From Escherichia phage ELT1, in the sequence record MZ892903.1: a stretch of DNA of 64,000 nucleotides, one strand, 5' to 3'. This document shows positions 3,192-11,869 of the stretch, one piece after another. The position numbers were made by a program, and so were the translations under genes. A model generated the notes under the pieces. The model saw only the letters and a program-made list of their open reading frames with translations. It had not been told where the DNA came from and ran no database searches. How positions within the stretch are numbered: position 1 is the first letter of the stretch; each line of letters starts with the position of its first letter.

Positions 3192-3302
3192 TCAGGGAGT
3201 ATAAAATCCAAATGCAGTTGTTGACCATCCCATCCAATATAGGAAATTTGCACCAATGTAAAACATAAGAATATAAAACCAAATGTTTAGTAAATTCATC
3301 AT
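3192..3302 (-). CDS. small hydrophobic peptide, 36 aa
   Basis: own translation MMNLLNIWFYILMFYIGANFLYWMGW...; one of a run of tiny membrane ORFs. Confidence 0.3.
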   Translation of the reverse strand: MMNLLNIWFYILMFYIGANFLYWMGWSTTAFGFYTP

Positions 3303-3361
3303 TTTACACCATTCCAAATTGTTTCAACTACGGATTTTAAACCATTTTGATGAATATCAAT

Positions 3362-3496
3362 TCAGACAACTGCCATCAAATAGATTCCAACTACAACTGA
3401 ACCCAAGGCGAAAATCAGCATGAAAATGAATAAAGCCGGAAAAATATTATCGAAAAACCATTCAATAAATGTAAAAGCACTGCGTTTACGCTTCAT
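3362..3496 (-). CDS. small hydrophobic peptide, 44 aa
   Basis: own translation MKRKRSAFTFIEWFFDNIFPALFIFMLIFALGSVVVGIYLMAVV. Confidence 0.3.
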   Translation of the reverse strand: MKRKRSAFTFIEWFFDNIFPALFIFMLIFALGSVVVGIYLMAVV

Positions 3497-3503
3497 ATTT
3501 TCC

Positions 3504-3617
3504 TCACATAAATCCAAAGTAAACGTTTAATACATCAATCATTAAAACGATTGGGAATATACTCAAAACTATTAGTATTATAACTACATTCCATATAGCT
3601 TTAACAATCTTTTTCAT
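3504..3617 (-). CDS. small hydrophobic peptide, 37 aa
   Basis: ORF 3504-3752 trimmed to MKKIVKAIWNVVIILIVLSIF... because upstream part spans a promoter. Confidence 0.3.
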   Translation of the reverse strand: MKKIVKAIWNVVIILIVLSIFPIVLMIDVLNVYFGFM

Positions 3618-3639
3618 TTTCTGTTCCTCCGTAGTTGAT

Positions 3640-3695
3640 AGGGTAATAGTACCACGGAAGAACAGTCTTGTAAACAACTTTTTTAAAAATATTCG
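3640..3695 (-). promoter_or_regulatory. T4-type early promoter
   Basis: GTTTAC (revcomp) 3670-3675, -10 TAATAGTACCAC-like 3644-3655, A/T upstream tract. Confidence 0.45.
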
Positions 3696-3781
3696 TAATA
3701 AATGTGAATACCAACTACTACTGCCGAAACTTGCGCAACCCACCACGCACACGCAATAAGTACAGAATTCAAAATTTTCAT
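3683..3781 (-). CDS. small hydrophobic peptide, 32 aa
   Basis: own translation MKILNSVLIACAWWVAQVSAVVVGIHIYYEYF. Confidence 0.25.
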   Translation of the reverse strand: MKILNSVLIACAWWVAQVSAVVVGIHIYYEYF

Positions 3782-3860
3782 AATAACCTCATCACAAAAG
3801 TAAATGTTAAACAAATTATTGGAATACTAATTAACCAAACAAAACACCACCATAATGAAC

Positions 3861-4124
3861 TCATAGTTCAATCTCAGCGATTTTCATTTCATTACTATTA
3901 ATAGCCTCTTTAAGACTATCTGAAAGAATTACATTCCAGTGGTCATTCATATGACCATTAACTAAGCGTGTAATTTCTTCAGGAGTTGAAAAATAAGGCT
4001 GATCAGACTCCCAATGCGATAATCCTAAGCGAGTATAAATCATACCTTCATCATCGCTAGAATATTCAACTGACACAAACTCATCAGTTATTTTATGTTT
4101 AGCGTAATAAAATTTAAATTTCAT
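3861..4124 (-). CDS. hypothetical protein, 87 aa
   Basis: ORF 3861-4217 trimmed to MKFKFYYAKHK... start with GGAGGAG RBS. Confidence 0.45.
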   Translation of the reverse strand: MKFKFYYAKHKITDEFVSVEYSSDDEGMIYTRLGLSHWESDQPYFSTPEEITRLVNGHMNDHWNVILSDSLKEAINSNEMKIAEIEL

Positions 4125-8421: not shown

Positions 8422-8625
8422 TTAATTCATATTACGCTTAATAACTTCAGCAACTTCTAGTAGTTCATCTTTAGTTGCGGTGTCGGATTGAATTTTATCT
8501 CTAATATCCTTAAAGCGGTTTTTAAACTCTTCGGCTTCTCCCATATCGAAAAAGCGTTGAATGATTCTATATTCTCGATGAACTGCTTTATCAAAAAGTT
8601 CTAAATTTACTTTATATGATTTCAT
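8422..8625 (-). CDS. hypothetical protein, 67 aa (rIIA.1 position)
   Basis: ORF track. Confidence 0.45.
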
Positions 8626-8647
8626 TTCAATATCCTCATTTGCCCAA

Positions 8648-8685
8648 TTAATTATACCACATCCTTGTGGTAAAGTAAACTACTG
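8648..8685 (-). promoter_or_regulatory. T4-type early promoter inside 3' end of gene 60
   Basis: GTTTAC (revcomp) 8675-8680, -10 TTATACCAC 8652-8660, CCACATCCTTGTGG palindrome. Confidence 0.45.
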
Positions 8686-9212
8686 GCTCATCCATTCTTT
8701 ACGAAGGTCAGCGTTATCTCCCATGAGCATTTCAAAAAGCTCTTTCCAATTCTCAGGAAGTTTAACAACATCATAAACTGGGTTCTGAATCATTTCACGG
8801 TATTCAGATTTTTCCAAAGAGCCAAGTCCCTTAATATAACGGATGCTATGTTTAGGTAGAGCATCTTTGGCACTCTCATATTCAGCGACTGTATAAAACC
8901 ATTCTTGTTTTTTACCGACCTGAGCGATGATTACAGGAGTTTTGACAAAGCGAATTCTTCCTTGTTCAAACAGTTCTGGCCAATTACTAAAAAATCCGAG
9001 CAGAGAAGGATAAATAGAACCTAATCCAATAATCTCTTAATTATGAGGTATTTCAATGGATAGCCCGAAGGCTATCCATCGTGATCTGCGTCTGTCATAA
9101 TAGCGACATTCGCATAGTTCATTGAAGAGGATTTAATAGAACGACGAACATTGTTCTGCAATTTATATTTTTTCATATCAACGCTAGAAGAATCAATTTT
9201 TACAAATTTCAT
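8680..9212 (-). CDS. 60: topoisomerase II subunit gp60 with 50-nt translational bypass; coding = complement(join(8683..9024,9075..9212)), 160 aa
   Basis: codons 1-46 MKFVKIDSS...IMTDADHDG end GGA then TAG; translation resumes after landing GGA with LGSIYPSLLGFFSNWPELFEQGRIRF...WMSQ. Confidence 0.9.
9025..9077 (-). other. gene 60 bypass element: take-off GGA, UAG stop, stem-loop, 50-nt coding gap, landing GGA
   Basis: minus strand GGA TAG CCTTCGGGCTATCC...ATTATT GGA TTA; 50 nt from after take-off GGA through landing GGA. Confidence 0.9.
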
Positions 9213-10011
9213 TATACACCTCATAGAACTTTTCATCAGGAATCCAACCGCGTTTAAATTCATTAAATGCTCGGCCGAATAATTTTGAATTCACAGTTAT
9301 ATTATTAACTGATTTCCATTTAGCAACTCCCGTTCGTTTATAATGATCGGGGTCATATTTCGTGACGTACCATTCATATAAATTTGGTATTAATTTTACA
9401 GCCTCTGGATTTGTCGCTGATTTATTATACCATGGTTTCGCTTTTTCAAGTTCAGCTGCTTTTGCAGTAGCAGCAACAGTATTTCCAATACCAACTAATT
9501 TTTCAGCTTTAATGCGTGGATCATTAACATGAAGACGAAAAACTTCGCCTTTTTCATTTTTAAAGCATGTCATGCCTTTAATTCCAGGAAGCTTAACACC
9601 TTTATTAACACCGCACCATTCCTTTGGGTTAAATGATCCTTTAATTAATAAGGCGCATTTACCCGATTTAATACTTCTCATTAAAACTTTATCTTTCATA
9701 AAGTTTTTTGACCATTCAGATACTGCTCTTTGATGGTAAATTCTAGCAATTTCATATAATTTACTAGAACGTAAATATTTTTCAGTGTTTAACATTCTAT
9801 TCATCGCATATGCCATTTCACGATTACGATGAATTTTATATAGTAGAAAATGTGCTAAAAAGTGTTCACGAAAAGTCAGTTTCACCAAATTTTCTTTATC
9901 ATCAGAACCTCCCATTGATCTTGGAAGGATATGGTGAATTTCACCCTTAAATTTAGAAACGCGGGTTTTACCCCGCACTATTAAGTCATTATAGATTTTT
10001 TCGTAATTCAC
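9193..10011 (-). CDS. mobA: HNH homing endonuclease (MobA-like), 272 aa, GTG start
   Basis: HHILPRSMGGSDDKENLVKLTFREHFLAHF HNH motif; lies between 39 and 60, overlapping both. Confidence 0.75.
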   Translation of the reverse strand: MNYEKIYNDLIVRGKTRVSKFKGEIHHILPRSMGGSDDKENLVKLTFREHFLAHFLLYKIHRNREMAYAMNRMLNTEKYLRSSKLYEIARIYHQRAVSEWSKNFMKDKVLMRSIKSGKCALLIKGSFNPKEWCGVNKGVKLPGIKGMTCFKNEKGEVFRLHVNDPRIKAEKLVGIGNTVAATAKAAELEKAKPWYNKSATNPEAVKLIPNLYEWYVTKYDPDHYKRTGVAKWKSVNNITVNSKLFGRAFNEFKRGWIPDEKFYEVYNEICKN

Positions 10012-11539
10012 CTACTGTTATCCATTTACCATTAATCTGTACTTCATCATTTTCATTTACAATAATTGTATCACCATTTAGTTCGAGAGTAAACCACTCA
10101 CCGTCTTCTTTTTCTTCAAACGCCTTTTCACCAAGAACTAATCCAGTGATTGCGCAAATATCAAACAGTTCTTTGTTTTTAAGCATGTCAGCATATGACA
10201 TACCCCAGCTATTAAGAACTTTACCGCGCAATGGATAACCACCATGAAGTTCTTTATCGCGAACATCAATAAGATATCCGATAGCAGAATCACCCTCAGT
10301 CAAGAAAAGAGTAGTGTCAGCATCTTTACCACAAAGATTCGCTTTGATATGTTTATGAACCTTAGCTTTAGAAGCCTTTTTAGCTGCTTTAGTTTCTGCT
10401 GCTTTTTCTGCCGCCAATTTACGAGCCAAAGCAGCTTCAATAATTGGCATTAAAATTGCTTCATTATTTAAAATAGCACGTGAAATCTTTTTAGCATCAA
10501 GCTGAATATGACTACGGATTTCACCAAATGGAGAAGTCAAACGCTCTTTAGTTTGAGAATCAAATCGCATGTTTTTCATATCACGAACAAACATAACGAT
10601 AGTCAAACATTCTTTAACACGTGCTTTAGTTACATCAATTTTGAATTTACGTTTGATTTGCGGAATAAGGTCTTCACAAATATCATCCATAACACAGTCA
10701 ATGTGATGGCCACCATTCTTAGTATGAATGTTATTGACGTATGTTAATTGACGAAAACCATCGGGTGAACGACCGACCGCAATAGAACAGTTTTCTTGTT
10801 CTTGAACGATGGCGTGTTCATCATATTGGCGTGCATATTTCTTAAAATTACCCTGAACCTTTTTACCATTAAAGGTAAATTGAATATCAGGATAAACTAC
10901 TGCAAGTGTCTGGAGACGATCTAGTGTAATGTCAAGATAAACTTGGGACAGCTCATTAGTTTCAAATGACATAAAATCAGGAATGAAAGTAACACGAGTT
11001 CCTTTCCATTTTCCAGGAATAGTTTCCCATGATTTATTTTCCATGCCATTTGAACAACGAACTACAATATTATTTTGACCATCACCAGTTTCACCGACAA
11101 ACATCACAGAAAAAATGTTTGTCAAACTAGAACCAACACCATTCATACCGCCAGTGACGCGTTCTTTATCATCACCGAAGTTACCACCTGCTTTTGGAAT
11201 AGTCCAGGCAGCAACTGGACCAGGAATTTCTTCACCGGTAGGTGTTTTGACCATCGCTTGTGGAATACCGCGACCGTTATCTTCAACTGTTACTTGATTG
11301 TTTTTAATAGTAACATTAATTTTATTTGCGAATTTAAACTTAGTACGAATACCTTCATCTACTGAGTTATCGATAATTTCATCAATAAGCTTAACAAGAC
11401 CAGGTACATACTGAACACTTTCCCATTTACCAAACAGAAAGCGCTCATGCATTTCATTAGCAGAAGAGCCAATATACATGCCGCTACGCTTTTTGATATG
11501 TTCAATATCGCTCAGAATTTTAATTTCATTCTTAATCAT
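9989..11539 (-). CDS. 39: DNA topoisomerase II large subunit (GyrB-like ATPase), 516 aa
   Basis: ORF trimmed to MIKNEIKILSDIEHIKK... ATG with GAGGA RBS; matches recalled T4 gp39. Confidence 0.95.
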   Translation of the reverse strand: MIKNEIKILSDIEHIKKRSGMYIGSSANEMHERFLFGKWESVQYVPGLVKLIDEIIDNSVDEGIRTKFKFANKINVTIKNNQVTVEDNGRGIPQAMVKTPTGEEIPGPVAAWTIPKAGGNFGDDKERVTGGMNGVGSSLTNIFSVMFVGETGDGQNNIVVRCSNGMENKSWETIPGKWKGTRVTFIPDFMSFETNELSQVYLDITLDRLQTLAVVYPDIQFTFNGKKVQGNFKKYARQYDEHAIVQEQENCSIAVGRSPDGFRQLTYVNNIHTKNGGHHIDCVMDDICEDLIPQIKRKFKIDVTKARVKECLTIVMFVRDMKNMRFDSQTKERLTSPFGEIRSHIQLDAKKISRAILNNEAILMPIIEAALARKLAAEKAAETKAAKKASKAKVHKHIKANLCGKDADTTLFLTEGDSAIGYLIDVRDKELHGGYPLRGKVLNSWGMSYADMLKNKELFDICAITGLVLGEKAFEEKEDGEWFTLELNGDTIIVNENDEVQINGKWITVGELRKNL

Positions 11540-11566
11540 CACTTATCCTCGTTTGGTTTCGGGAAT

Positions 11567-11592
11567 ATTATACTCCGGTAATCATAAAGCTA
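11567..11592 (-). promoter_or_regulatory. middle-promoter-like element upstream of gene 39
   Basis: minus strand AGCTTTA (MotA-box-like) about 12 nt upstream of TATAAT. Confidence 0.35.
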
Positions 11593-11608
11593 AAGGCCCG
11601 AAGGCCTT
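11592..11608 (-). terminator. terminator-like hairpin
   Basis: GGCCCGAAGGCC stem-tetraloop then T-run, 3' of ORF 11609-11869. Confidence 0.45.
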
Positions 11609-11869
11609 TTATTTAAAACGAATAGTCGAATCCTTGAAGAATAGTCCAGAACATACTGTTCCTTCTACTTTCTGCCCAGTAGGTCCAATAGCACGAAATC
11701 CAGTATGCTGGAAATCATTTTCAGAGCAACCGAACCAATTATATCCAGTGATTTCAATATTAGTAAAACCGCTTGAAGACAAAACTTTGGTTGCATTATC
11801 AGCATCAGTACATCCTACTAAAGATACTGCTAATACTAATGCTGCGATAGAACGATTAACATATTTCAT
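11609..11869 (-). CDS. predicted lipoprotein, 86 aa
   Basis: signal peptide with lipobox LVGC. Confidence 0.5.
   Translation of the reverse strand: MKYVNRSIAALVLAVSLVGCTDADNATKVLSSSGFTNIEITGYNWFGCSENDFQHTGFRAIGPTGQKVEGTVCSGLFFKDSTIRFK

What the first reader, a model, noticed from the sequence alone, without database searches (positions are those of the whole stretch)
8680..11539. Topoisomerase large subunit split into genes 39 and 60 with an HNH endonuclease gene wedged between
The GyrB-like function is divided: gene 39 (ATPase domain), then a MobA-like HNH ORF with a GTG start, then gene 60 (Toprim motif IMTDADHDG). The endonuclease ORF overlaps the 3' end of 39 (23 nt) and the 5' end of 60 (20 nt). 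This arrangement resembles a mobile cassette interrupting an ancestral single gene. An early promoter also sits inside the 3' end of gene 60.
Basis: partly seen in the sequence, partly recalled or inferred. Interest (0 to 1): 0.45.

Follow-up and report, generated by a model that had tools for sequence, protein, structure and literature searches.

The report
T4 mobA homing cassette with ribosomal bypass

Summary
The window comes from a T4-like phage (Tequatrovirus). Its closest match is JEP6 at 99.2%, and T4 matches at about 97%. All genes lie on the minus strand. The coordinates, the GTG start of mobA and the 23-nt and 20-nt overlaps are all correct. About 490 close relatives carry one uninterrupted 605-aa gene. 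Comparing them with the window defines a 1,106-nt element (window 10121..9016) that replaces 64 nt of that gene. The element encodes a 43-aa tail on gp39, MobA (272 aa, HNH residues present), the first 46 codons of gene 60, and a 50-nt coding gap.

It is join(9212..9075, 9024..8680), read by translational bypassing from GGA-UAG to a matching GGA. Every published bypass signal except the forward-slippage barrier is present. The joined gp60 is 100% identical to T4 gp60.

The "early promoter inside gene 60" actually sits immediately after the stop codon.

All of this is published (Bonocora 2011; Edgell 2010; Manning & Atkins 2022). The only local detail is a two-base gap variant that lengthens the take-off stem. 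Phage HY01 has the same variant. Verdict: real, correctly read as a mobile cassette, already known, low novelty.

The parts
9989..11539 (-). Gene 39, 516 aa. It holds the GHKL ATPase, the transducer and the N-terminal half of Toprim (EGDSA at aa 415). Residues 1-473 are parental and residues 474-516 are the element-encoded C-terminal extension.
   Evidence: identical protein in HY01 and JEP6, 5 aa differences from T4T
9016..10121 (-). The MobA mobile element as defined by comparison with uninterrupted relatives. It is 1,106 nt and replaces 64 nt of the parental gene.
   Evidence: matches the 1097-1106 nt element and 64-nt deletion reported by Manning & Atkins
9992..10121 (-). C-terminal extension (CTE) of gp39, 43 aa: FEEKEDGEWFTLELNGDTIIVNENDEVQINGKWITVGELRKNL. 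The first base (10121) is the third position of the Ala473 codon. No counterpart exists in uninterrupted genes.
   Evidence: described as part of a ~70-aa Toprim insertion seen as a pendant outside Toprim in cryo-EM of T4 topo II
9193..10011 (-). mobA, an HNH homing endonuclease of 272 aa with a GTG start and a weak SD. It overlaps gene 39 by 23 nt and gene 60 by 20 nt, out of frame with both.
   Evidence: phrog_655 'homing endonuclease' E 2.5e-57; HNH motif EIHH(25-26)...N41...H50 aligned to the 6me0 maturase HNH domain; 1 aa from T4T MobA, identical to JEP6
9075..9212 (-). Gene 60, first piece, codons 1-46. Residues 1-30 are the unique N-terminal extension that carries the nascent-peptide bypass signal KYKLQNNVRRSIKSSS. 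Residues 31-46 are the HomR copy of the replaced parental segment. The piece ends in the take-off codon GGA (9077..9075).
   Evidence: 46-aa chain identical to PDB 5np6_C
9025..9074 (-). The 50-nt untranslated coding gap: UAG (9074..9072), the 3' arm of the take-off stem-loop, an AU-rich tract, the GAG mini-SD (9036..9034) and the landing GGA (9027..9025).
   Evidence: annotated as 'non-coding translational bypass region' in T4T, T4 and HY01; differs from T4 at 9058 (U>C) and 9055 (A>U)
9054..9081 (-). Take-off stem-loop, 12 bp with a UUCG tetraloop, containing the take-off GGA and the UAG.
   Evidence: -20.2 kcal/mol, z -7.9, 0 of 200 shuffles as stable; the T4 version is 10 bp and -14.7 kcal/mol
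9087..9114 (-). 5' stem-loop upstream of the take-off site, identical in sequence to T4.
   Evidence: -10.1 kcal/mol, z -1.9, weak on its own; role taken from the literature
8680..9024 (-). Gene 60, second piece, codons 47-160 plus the stop. The first 9 nt (TTA GGT TCT) still belong to the element and are synonymously recoded against the parental CTA GGA AGC. Parental sequence resumes at 9015.
   Evidence: joined gp60 100% identical to T4 gp60 and to residues 517-676 of PDB 8yo3_C
8651..8680 (-). T4-early-type promoter-like site (GTTTAC ... TG-TATAAT) for rIIA.1/rIIA. It starts on the last base of the gene 60 stop codon.
   Evidence: 10/12 match, TG-extended -10; function not tested

Best explanation
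The locus is the MobA homing-endonuclease / translational-bypass cassette of T4-type phages, sitting in the topoisomerase II large-subunit gene.

Shown here: a 1,106-nt element replaces 64 nt in the middle of the Toprim-coding region of an otherwise single 605-aa gene. It ends the upstream part with a 43-aa tail, giving gp39. It carries an intact HNH endonuclease gene (mobA) that overlaps both neighbours out of frame. It restarts the downstream part with its own strong SD and ATG, a 30-aa leader and a diverged 16-aa copy of the replaced segment. It then interrupts that reading frame with a 50-nt gap.

Inferred from published T4 work. gp60 is made when ribosomes stall at GGA-UAG. The nascent peptide and the take-off stem-loop in the A site make peptidyl-tRNA(Gly) detach. 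The ribosome slides 50 nt, is caught by the GAG mini-SD, re-pairs at the matching GGA and resumes at UUA. gp39 and gp60 then assemble with gp52 into an active topoisomerase. MobA nicks uninterrupted gene 39 in co-infecting phages inside the segment the element replaces. Recombinational repair then copies the whole cassette into the other genome. The 50-nt gap, about 20 nt from the nick site, keeps MobA from cutting its own genome.
For: - Layout identical to curated T4T.
- 41 records carry the cassette and about 490 carry the uninterrupted gene.
- Junctions are clean to the nucleotide, 1,106 nt in place of 64 nt, and equal the published element dimensions.
- CTE, NTE and HomR anatomy is as published.
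- Bypass signals are present: GGA/GGA, UAG, a UUCG stem-loop with z -7.9, and GAG 6 nt before landing.
- gp60 is 100% identical to T4 gp60, to 8yo3 and to the ribosome-bound 46-mer 5np6_C.
- MobA has the HNH residues and matches phrog_655 at 2.5e-57.
- The element is more conserved between phages (99.0-99.6%) than its flanks (96.0-98.7%), as expected for lateral spread.
- Mechanism and homing experiments are summarised.
Against: - Nothing in the sequence contradicts this explanation.
- MobA activity, homing and bypassing were not and cannot be tested here. They are carried over from T4/T2 experiments.
- The Pfam HNH hit is just under the gathering score (20.1 against 21.4 bits).
- mobA has a GTG start and a weak SD, so expression may be low.
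- The forward-slippage-barrier hairpin described for T4 is not distinguishable from shuffled sequence in a simple fold (z +1.7).
- The primary paper (Bonocora 2011, PMC3182709) could not be opened, so its results are cited second-hand.
Confidence: 0.95

Rival explanations
1. The cassette is a decayed, immobile relic. The split and the bypass persist, but MobA in this phage no longer works, as the T4 reference record annotates it ('MobA homing endonuclease pseudogene' plus ORF 60.1).
For: - AF158101 annotates mobA as a pseudogene.
- Manning & Atkins list lineages with a degraded or lost endonuclease.
- mobA has a GTG start and a poor SD.
- The Pfam HNH hit is below threshold.
Against: - The ORF here is intact at 272 aa, identical to JEP6 and one residue from the T4T and HY01 MobA.
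- H25/H26, N41 and H50 are all present.
- The element is under tighter conservation than its flanks.
Confidence: 0.08
2. There is no bypass. The region encodes a 46-aa peptide and a separately initiated C-terminal topoisomerase fragment, as several automatic annotations draw it.
Against: - Those second CDSs start at internal codons (45-107 aa) and drop conserved Toprim residues that follow the gap directly (LGSIYPSLL...).
- No start codon or SD lies at the resume site, and only a TTG 45-aa ORF is listed.
- The joined product is collinear with the uninterrupted protein and identical to T4 gp60, whose bypass is experimentally established.
Confidence: 0.02
3. The 50 nt, or the whole insert, is removed at the RNA or protein level by a group I intron or an intein, as with other T4 endonuclease-bearing elements.
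For: T4 has three group I introns that carry endonucleases.
Against: - No Rfam intron or other family matches in 8500..11700. The single hit is a chance sub-threshold sRNA match on the other strand, 24 against 86 bits.
- No Hint or intein domain appears in any product.
- 50 nt is far too short for a group I intron.
- The literature states that the 50 nt are present in the mRNA.
Confidence: 0.01
4. The split is a sequencing or assembly artefact of a single gene.
For: None specific.
Against: A 1.1-kb insert with a complete, conserved ORF recurs in 41 independent records, with identical junctions and gap signals.
Confidence: 0.01

Closest known systems
Phage T4 39-mobA-60 cassette with the gene 60 50-nt translational bypass (Huang 1988; Weiss 1990; Bonocora et al. 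2011; clade 1 of Manning & Atkins 2022)
   Same: - Same genes, order, overlaps (23 and 20 nt) and GTG start.
- Same element size (1,106 nt) and 64-nt replacement.
- gp60 is 100% identical, MobA differs by 1 aa and gp39 by 5 aa from T4T.
- Same take-off and landing GGA, UAG, UUCG loop and GAG spacing.
   Different: - Two substitutions in the gap (window 9058 U>C, 9055 A>U) turn a G.U pair into G-C and add two closing pairs. The predicted take-off stem is 12 bp at -20.2 kcal/mol, against 10 bp at -14.7 kcal/mol in T4. The same changes remove T4's second UAG in the gap.
- mobA is intact here, whereas the AF158101 reference annotates a pseudogene.
Phage HY01 / JEP6 / PEC04 / pSe_SNUABM_01 versions of the same cassette
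   Same: The 131 nt around the gap are 100% identical. gp39 is identical, and MobA differs by 0-1 aa in JEP6 and HY01. HY01 is the worked example in Manning & Atkins, Fig. 2.
   Different: gp60 residues 11 and 18 are V and L here, as in T4, but I and S in HY01 and JEP6. L18 lies inside the nascent-peptide signal.
MobE insertion splitting nrdA in Aeromonas phage Aeh1
   Same: A free-standing Mob-family HNH endonuclease is inserted inside an essential enzyme gene. It adds C- and N-terminal tails to the two halves, which reassemble into an active enzyme.
   Different: The target gene is different and there is no translational bypass cassette.
Intron- or intein-borne homing endonucleases (I-TevI/II/III, I-HmuI)
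   Same: They follow the same selfish logic: cut or nick the empty allele, spread by recombinational repair, and protect their own site by disrupting it.
   Different: Those elements restore the host gene by RNA or protein splicing. Here the gene stays split and the disruption is tolerated by ribosome hopping.

Membership tests
MobA/bypass mobile element of Topo2L (Bonocora 2011; Manning & Atkins 2022) | Inserted in the Toprim-coding part of the topoisomerase II large-subunit gene at about aa 466-473, with uninterrupted near-identical relatives existing | tested here: met
   The break comes after Ala473 (window 10122/10121). About 490 relatives have an uninterrupted 605-aa gene.
MobA/bypass mobile element of Topo2L (Bonocora 2011; Manning & Atkins 2022) | Element of about 1097-1106 nt replacing 55-75 nt of the parental gene | tested here: met
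   1,106 nt (10121..9016) replaces 64 nt, against the published range.
MobA/bypass mobile element of Topo2L (Bonocora 2011; Manning & Atkins 2022) | HNH endonuclease ORF of 269-279 aa overlapping both flanking ORFs out of frame | tested here: met
   272 aa, with overlaps of 23 and 20 nt.
MobA/bypass mobile element of Topo2L (Bonocora 2011; Manning & Atkins 2022) | In-frame CTE of about 44 aa on ORF1; NTE of 44-46 aa on ORF2 made of a unique leader of about 30 aa plus a HomR copy of about 15 aa | tested here: met
   CTE of 43 aa. NTE of 30 aa plus a 16-aa HomR (MNYANVAIMTDADHDG against parental ENLNYHNIAIMTDADHDG).
MobA/bypass mobile element of Topo2L (Bonocora 2011; Manning & Atkins 2022) | Bypass cassette with matched take-off and landing codons, a stop or hungry codon after take-off, a take-off stem-loop with a stable tetraloop, and a mini-SD 5-7 nt before landing | tested here: met
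   GGA/GGA, UAG, a 12-bp stem with UUCG (z -7.9), and GAG 6 nt upstream of the landing codon.
MobA/bypass mobile element of Topo2L (Bonocora 2011; Manning & Atkins 2022) | Ribosomes actually bypass the gap; MobA nicks the empty allele and the cassette homes | not testable with these tools
   Known only from T4/T2 experiments reported in the literature.
HNH (beta-beta-alpha-metal) nuclease | Catalytic His (general base), conserved Asn, and a distal metal-binding His in the H-N-H spacing | tested here: met
   EIHHILPRSMGGSDDKENLVKLTFREH aligns with EIHHILPKHKGGSDDLDNLVLIHANCH of the 6me0 maturase HNH domain. Weaker matches go to Cas8f-HNH, McrA and IscB HNH.
HNH (beta-beta-alpha-metal) nuclease | Passes the curated Pfam PF01844 threshold | tested here: inconclusive
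   20.1 bits against a gathering score of 21.4, E 7e-4. phrog_655 'homing endonuclease' scores 2.5e-57.
Type IIA topoisomerase B-type (GyrB-like) subunit | GHKL ATPase, transducer, and Toprim with the E-G-D-S-A glutamate and the DxDxD metal site | tested here: met
   - HATPase_c and DNA_gyraseB domains in gp39.
- GyrB/ParE NCBIfam models align to gp39 residues 4-476.
- EGDSA at gp39 residue 415.
- DADHD in gp60 residues 41-45, and TOPRIM_C in the second piece of gp60.
- The two Toprim halves lie on different polypeptides.
Group I intron / intein (considered) | Intron RNA fold, or Hint splicing domains flanking the endonuclease | tested here: not met
   No Rfam family at E<=1 apart from one chance sRNA hit. 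No Hint domains.

The most novel reading that the evidence does not exclude
The two-base gap variant carried here (C at 9058, U at 9055) is also found in HY01, JEP6, PEC04 and pSe_SNUABM_01, and G50 is a one-step intermediate. It lengthens the take-off stem-loop from 10 to 12 bp, about 5.5 kcal/mol more stable, and removes T4's second UAG. It could be a natural allele that changes bypass efficiency, and with it the gp60:gp39 ratio, compared with the T4 sequence on which almost all mechanistic work was done.
Probability: 0.25. Interest if true: 0.3.

Novelty: already known. Interest (0 to 1): 0.12.

Why it matters
The locus is biologically remarkable. It is the classic case of programmed translational bypassing, and a homing endonuclease carries its own means of tolerating its insertion into an essential gene. 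But it has been studied since 1988, its mobility was shown in 2011, and its natural variants, including this one, were catalogued in 2022.

Two practical points follow:
- Gene 60 must be annotated as a two-piece join. Several public relatives annotate it wrongly.
- The window supplies one more intact-mobA, strong-stem allele that could be used in comparative bypass assays.

Tried and rejected
- Intron or structured-RNA explanation: the Rfam E-value scan of 8500..11700 gave only one sub-threshold chance hit on the other strand.
- Promoter inside gene 60: the consensus scan found no convincing site within the 3' end. The strong site begins at the stop codon, and promoter-like hits in the region are fewer than in shuffles. 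No MotA-box consensus or late-promoter TATAAATA was found inside the cassette.
- Forward slippage barrier: folding the 68 nt from the landing codon onwards gave no structure better than shuffles.
- MobA relatives among solved structures: only short HNH-motif matches were found, with no solved homologue of the C-terminal (presumed DNA-binding) two-thirds. A weak gp6 baseplate-domain hit is judged to be chance.
- Base composition as a sign of foreign origin: the element is 33.0% GC against 36.7-38.7% in the flanks and 34.6% window-wide. The difference is too small to say anything.
- Reading Bonocora et al. 2011 directly: the paper is not held. Its results are taken from the reviews and the preprint that cite it.
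- The large protein-database, structure-prediction and metagenome tools were not used, because the identity of the locus was settled without them.
Full report
**What is in the sequence.** Four ORFs relevant here lie on the minus strand of 8680..11539.
- Gene 39 runs 11539..9989 and encodes 516 aa. It has an ATG start preceded by GAGGA.
- mobA runs 10011..9193 and encodes 272 aa. Its GTG start follows an in-frame TAG directly, so the ORF cannot begin further upstream.
- A 46-codon ORF runs 9212..9075. It encodes MKFVKIDSSSVDMKKYKLQNNVRRSIKSSSMNYANVAIMTDADHDG, followed by the stop codon TAG at 9074..9072.
- A reading frame from 9024 to 8680 continues LGSIYPSLLGFF...EWMSQ.

Pfam places HATPase_c and DNA_gyraseB in gp39, and TOPRIM_C in the 8680..9030 product. 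NCBIfam GyrB/ParE models align to gp39 residues 4-476. gp39 also contains the Toprim EGDSA motif at residue 415. The split therefore falls inside Toprim, not between the ATPase and Toprim.

**Identity of the window.** The 3,021 nt from 8600 to 11620 match 533 phage records. The best match is Escherichia phage JEP6 at 99.2%. The T4 isolates match at 96.9-97.5%. The curated T4T record (HM137666) has the same layout base for base. It lists 39, then mobA ('homing endonuclease; H-N-H family'), then gene 60 as a two-piece join around a 50-nt 'non-coding translational bypass region'. Mapped onto the window, gene 60 is join(9212..9075, 9024..8680) and the gap is 9074..9025.

**The ancestral single gene exists.** Only 41 of the 533 records cover the whole query. 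The rest span the same flanks in 1,979 bp instead of 3,021 bp. They annotate one gene, for example 'gp60plus39' in ime09 and '60plus39' in RB68. Those genes are 1,818 nt and encode 605 aa.

At protein level:
- gp39 residues 1-473 are collinear with the uninterrupted protein up to ...VLGEKA.
- A 43-aa tail follows that has no counterpart in the uninterrupted protein.
- gp60 residues 1-30 are unique to the element.
- gp60 residues 31-46 are a diverged copy of the parental ENLNYHNIAIMTDADHDG.
- Everything after the gap is identical to the parental protein.

At nucleotide level, identity breaks after window 10122 and resumes at 9015. The element is therefore 10121..9016, which is 1,106 nt, and it replaces 64 nt. 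The three codons after the landing site are synonymously recoded: TTA GGT TCT against parental CTA GGA AGC. These figures equal those published for this element: 1097-1106 nt, a 64-nt deletion in HY01, and 9 extra nt beyond the gap in the E. coli clade.

**Bypass signals**.
- The take-off codon GGA (9077..9075) is followed by UAG.
- A matching landing GGA sits at 9027..9025, and translation resumes at UUA (9024).
- GAG lies at 9036..9034, 6 nt before the landing codon, within AU-rich sequence.
- The take-off stem-loop at 9081..9054 has 12 bp and a UUCG loop. It folds at -20.2 kcal/mol with z -7.9, and none of 200 shuffles was as stable.
- The 5' stem-loop at 9114..9087 is identical to T4's but is only weakly distinguished from shuffles (z -1.9).
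- The forward slippage barrier reported for T4 is not detectable by simple folding (z +1.7).

The joined gp60 is 100% identical to T4 gp60. It matches residues 517-676 of the T4 topo II cryo-EM chain 8yo3_C, and its first 46 residues equal chain 5np6_C. The mechanism is taken from the T4 literature. In that account the nascent peptide and an A-site hairpin drive peptidyl-tRNA(Gly) to detach. The ribosome slides, anti-SD pairing slows it, and the tRNA re-pairs at the landing codon. About half of ribosomes complete the hop.

**MobA.** The protein matches phrog_655 'homing endonuclease' at 2.5e-57. Its motif EIHH-x14-N-x8-H aligns residue for residue with the HNH domain of a group II intron maturase (6me0). 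It matches Cas8f-HNH, McrA and IscB HNH more weakly. The Pfam HNH hit falls just below threshold, 20.1 against 21.4 bits. The protein is identical to JEP6 MobA and one residue from the T4T and HY01 MobA.

The GUG start and the 23-bp overlap are already noted by Edgell et al. 2010, who also report that MobA nicks one strand of its target. According to Manning & Atkins, citing Bonocora et al. 2011:
- MobA nicks T2 gene 39 within the segment corresponding to HomR.
- The cassette, gap included, is copied into T2 in mixed infections.
- The gap, about 20 nt from the nick site, protects the carrier genome.

I could not open the 2011 paper itself.

**Support for mobility from this comparison.** Against T4T, HY01 and JEP6, the element is 99.0%, 99.5% and 99.6% identical. 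The gene 39 parental part is 96.0%, 97.3% and 98.7% identical, and the gene 60 parental part is 97.3%, 96.7% and 99.4%. This fits recent lateral spread, or strong constraint, or both.

**Function of the split enzyme.** The 2024 cryo-EM study describes the gp39 tail plus gp60 leader as a Toprim insertion of about 70 aa. It hangs outside the domain, does not touch DNA and has little effect on relaxation activity. The authors suggest it acts as an assembly aid.

**The promoter claim.** The only strong sigma-70/T4-early-type site is GTTTAC (8680..8675), a 17-18 nt spacer with TG, then TATAAT (8656..8651). Its first base is the last base of the gene 60 stop codon. It lies in the spacer before rIIA.1, which starts at 8625. 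It abuts gene 60 rather than sitting inside it. The one match truly inside the 3' end of the gene scores 9/12, and the region has fewer promoter-like matches than shuffled sequence does.

**Local variation.** The gap differs from T4's at two bases (9058 U>C and 9055 A>U). Both lie in the lower take-off stem, and both improve pairing, from 10 bp at -14.7 kcal/mol to 12 bp at -20.2 kcal/mol. G50 has only the first change. HY01, JEP6, PEC04 and pSe_SNUABM_01 have both. HY01 is the exemplar in the 2022 survey, so the variant is not new. Whether it alters bypass efficiency is untested.

**Alternatives.**
- An intron or intein reading is not supported. There is no Rfam family match and there are no Hint domains.
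- The 'two separate CDS' reading in several automatic annotations drops conserved residues and lacks a start site at the resume point.
- An assembly artefact is excluded by recurrence in 41 records.
- A non-functional MobA cannot be excluded by computation, but it is unlikely given the intact, conserved ORF.

**Verdict.** The interpretation as a mobile cassette splitting an ancestral gene is right. The defining extra feature, the 50-nt ribosomal bypass, was missed. The whole system is already known in detail. Novelty: already known. Interest: low.

Noticed in passing
window 11567..11609 (- strand): Upstream of gene 39 there is a UUCG-tetraloop hairpin AAAGGCC-UUCG-GGCCUUU (11609..11592), which G50 annotates as a terminator. 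A MotA-box-like TTAGCTTTA (11593..11585) overlaps its 3' end. A TATAAT (11572..11567) lies 12 nt after the box. Together they look like a terminator followed by a T4 middle-type promoter for the 39-mobA-60 transcript.
   Followed up: partly
L007 (CJY920, PQ349265, UNVERIFIED record) 3233..4123: This relative has about 890 extra nt right after gene 60. About 23 nt of the gene 60 3' end are duplicated on either side. The insert holds a second Mob-type HNH ORF of 265 aa (MNYRKIYDKL...ETHHILPKSMGGSNAKSNLV...). That gives two HNH homing genes flanking gene 60.
   Followed up: partly
L008 (GRNsp7, ON720975), gap region: The coding gap is 51 nt, not 50. One extra T sits between the GAGA and TTATTGGA, so the mini-SD is 7 nt from the landing codon. 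This is either a tolerated natural variant or a homopolymer sequencing error.
   Followed up: no
L003 (JEP6), L008 (GRNsp7), L009 (Manna), L010 (G50): Public records mis-annotate gene 60 as a 46-aa CDS plus a separate truncated 'topoisomerase' CDS of 45-107 aa. None annotates the two-piece join with the bypass.
   Followed up: yes
L002 (T4 AF158101) against L001 (T4T HM137666): The T4 reference record is 11 nt longer across this stretch. It annotates mobA as a 37-aa pseudogene plus ORF 60.1, whereas T4T and the window have one intact 272-aa mobA. I did not locate the 11-nt difference.
   Followed up: partly
window 9016..10121 against its flanks: The element is more conserved between phages (99.0-99.6% to T4T, HY01 and JEP6) than the adjacent parental parts of genes 39 and 60 (96.0-98.7% and 96.7-99.4%).
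   Followed up: partly
window 9212..9075 (gp60 residues 11 and 18): The window's gp60 leader has V11 and L18, as T4 does, while its closest relatives JEP6 and HY01 have I11 and S18. Yet the gap carries the HY01/JEP6-type bases rather than the T4-type. The cassette here is a mosaic of the two allele sets. L18 lies in the nascent-peptide bypass signal.
   Followed up: no
window 9676..9834 (MobA residues 60-112): MobA residues 60-112 give a weak similarity to the baseplate gp6 C-terminal domain III (Pfam PF21871 E 8e-4, below threshold; PDB 9f4a E 0.18). It is probably chance.
   Followed up: no
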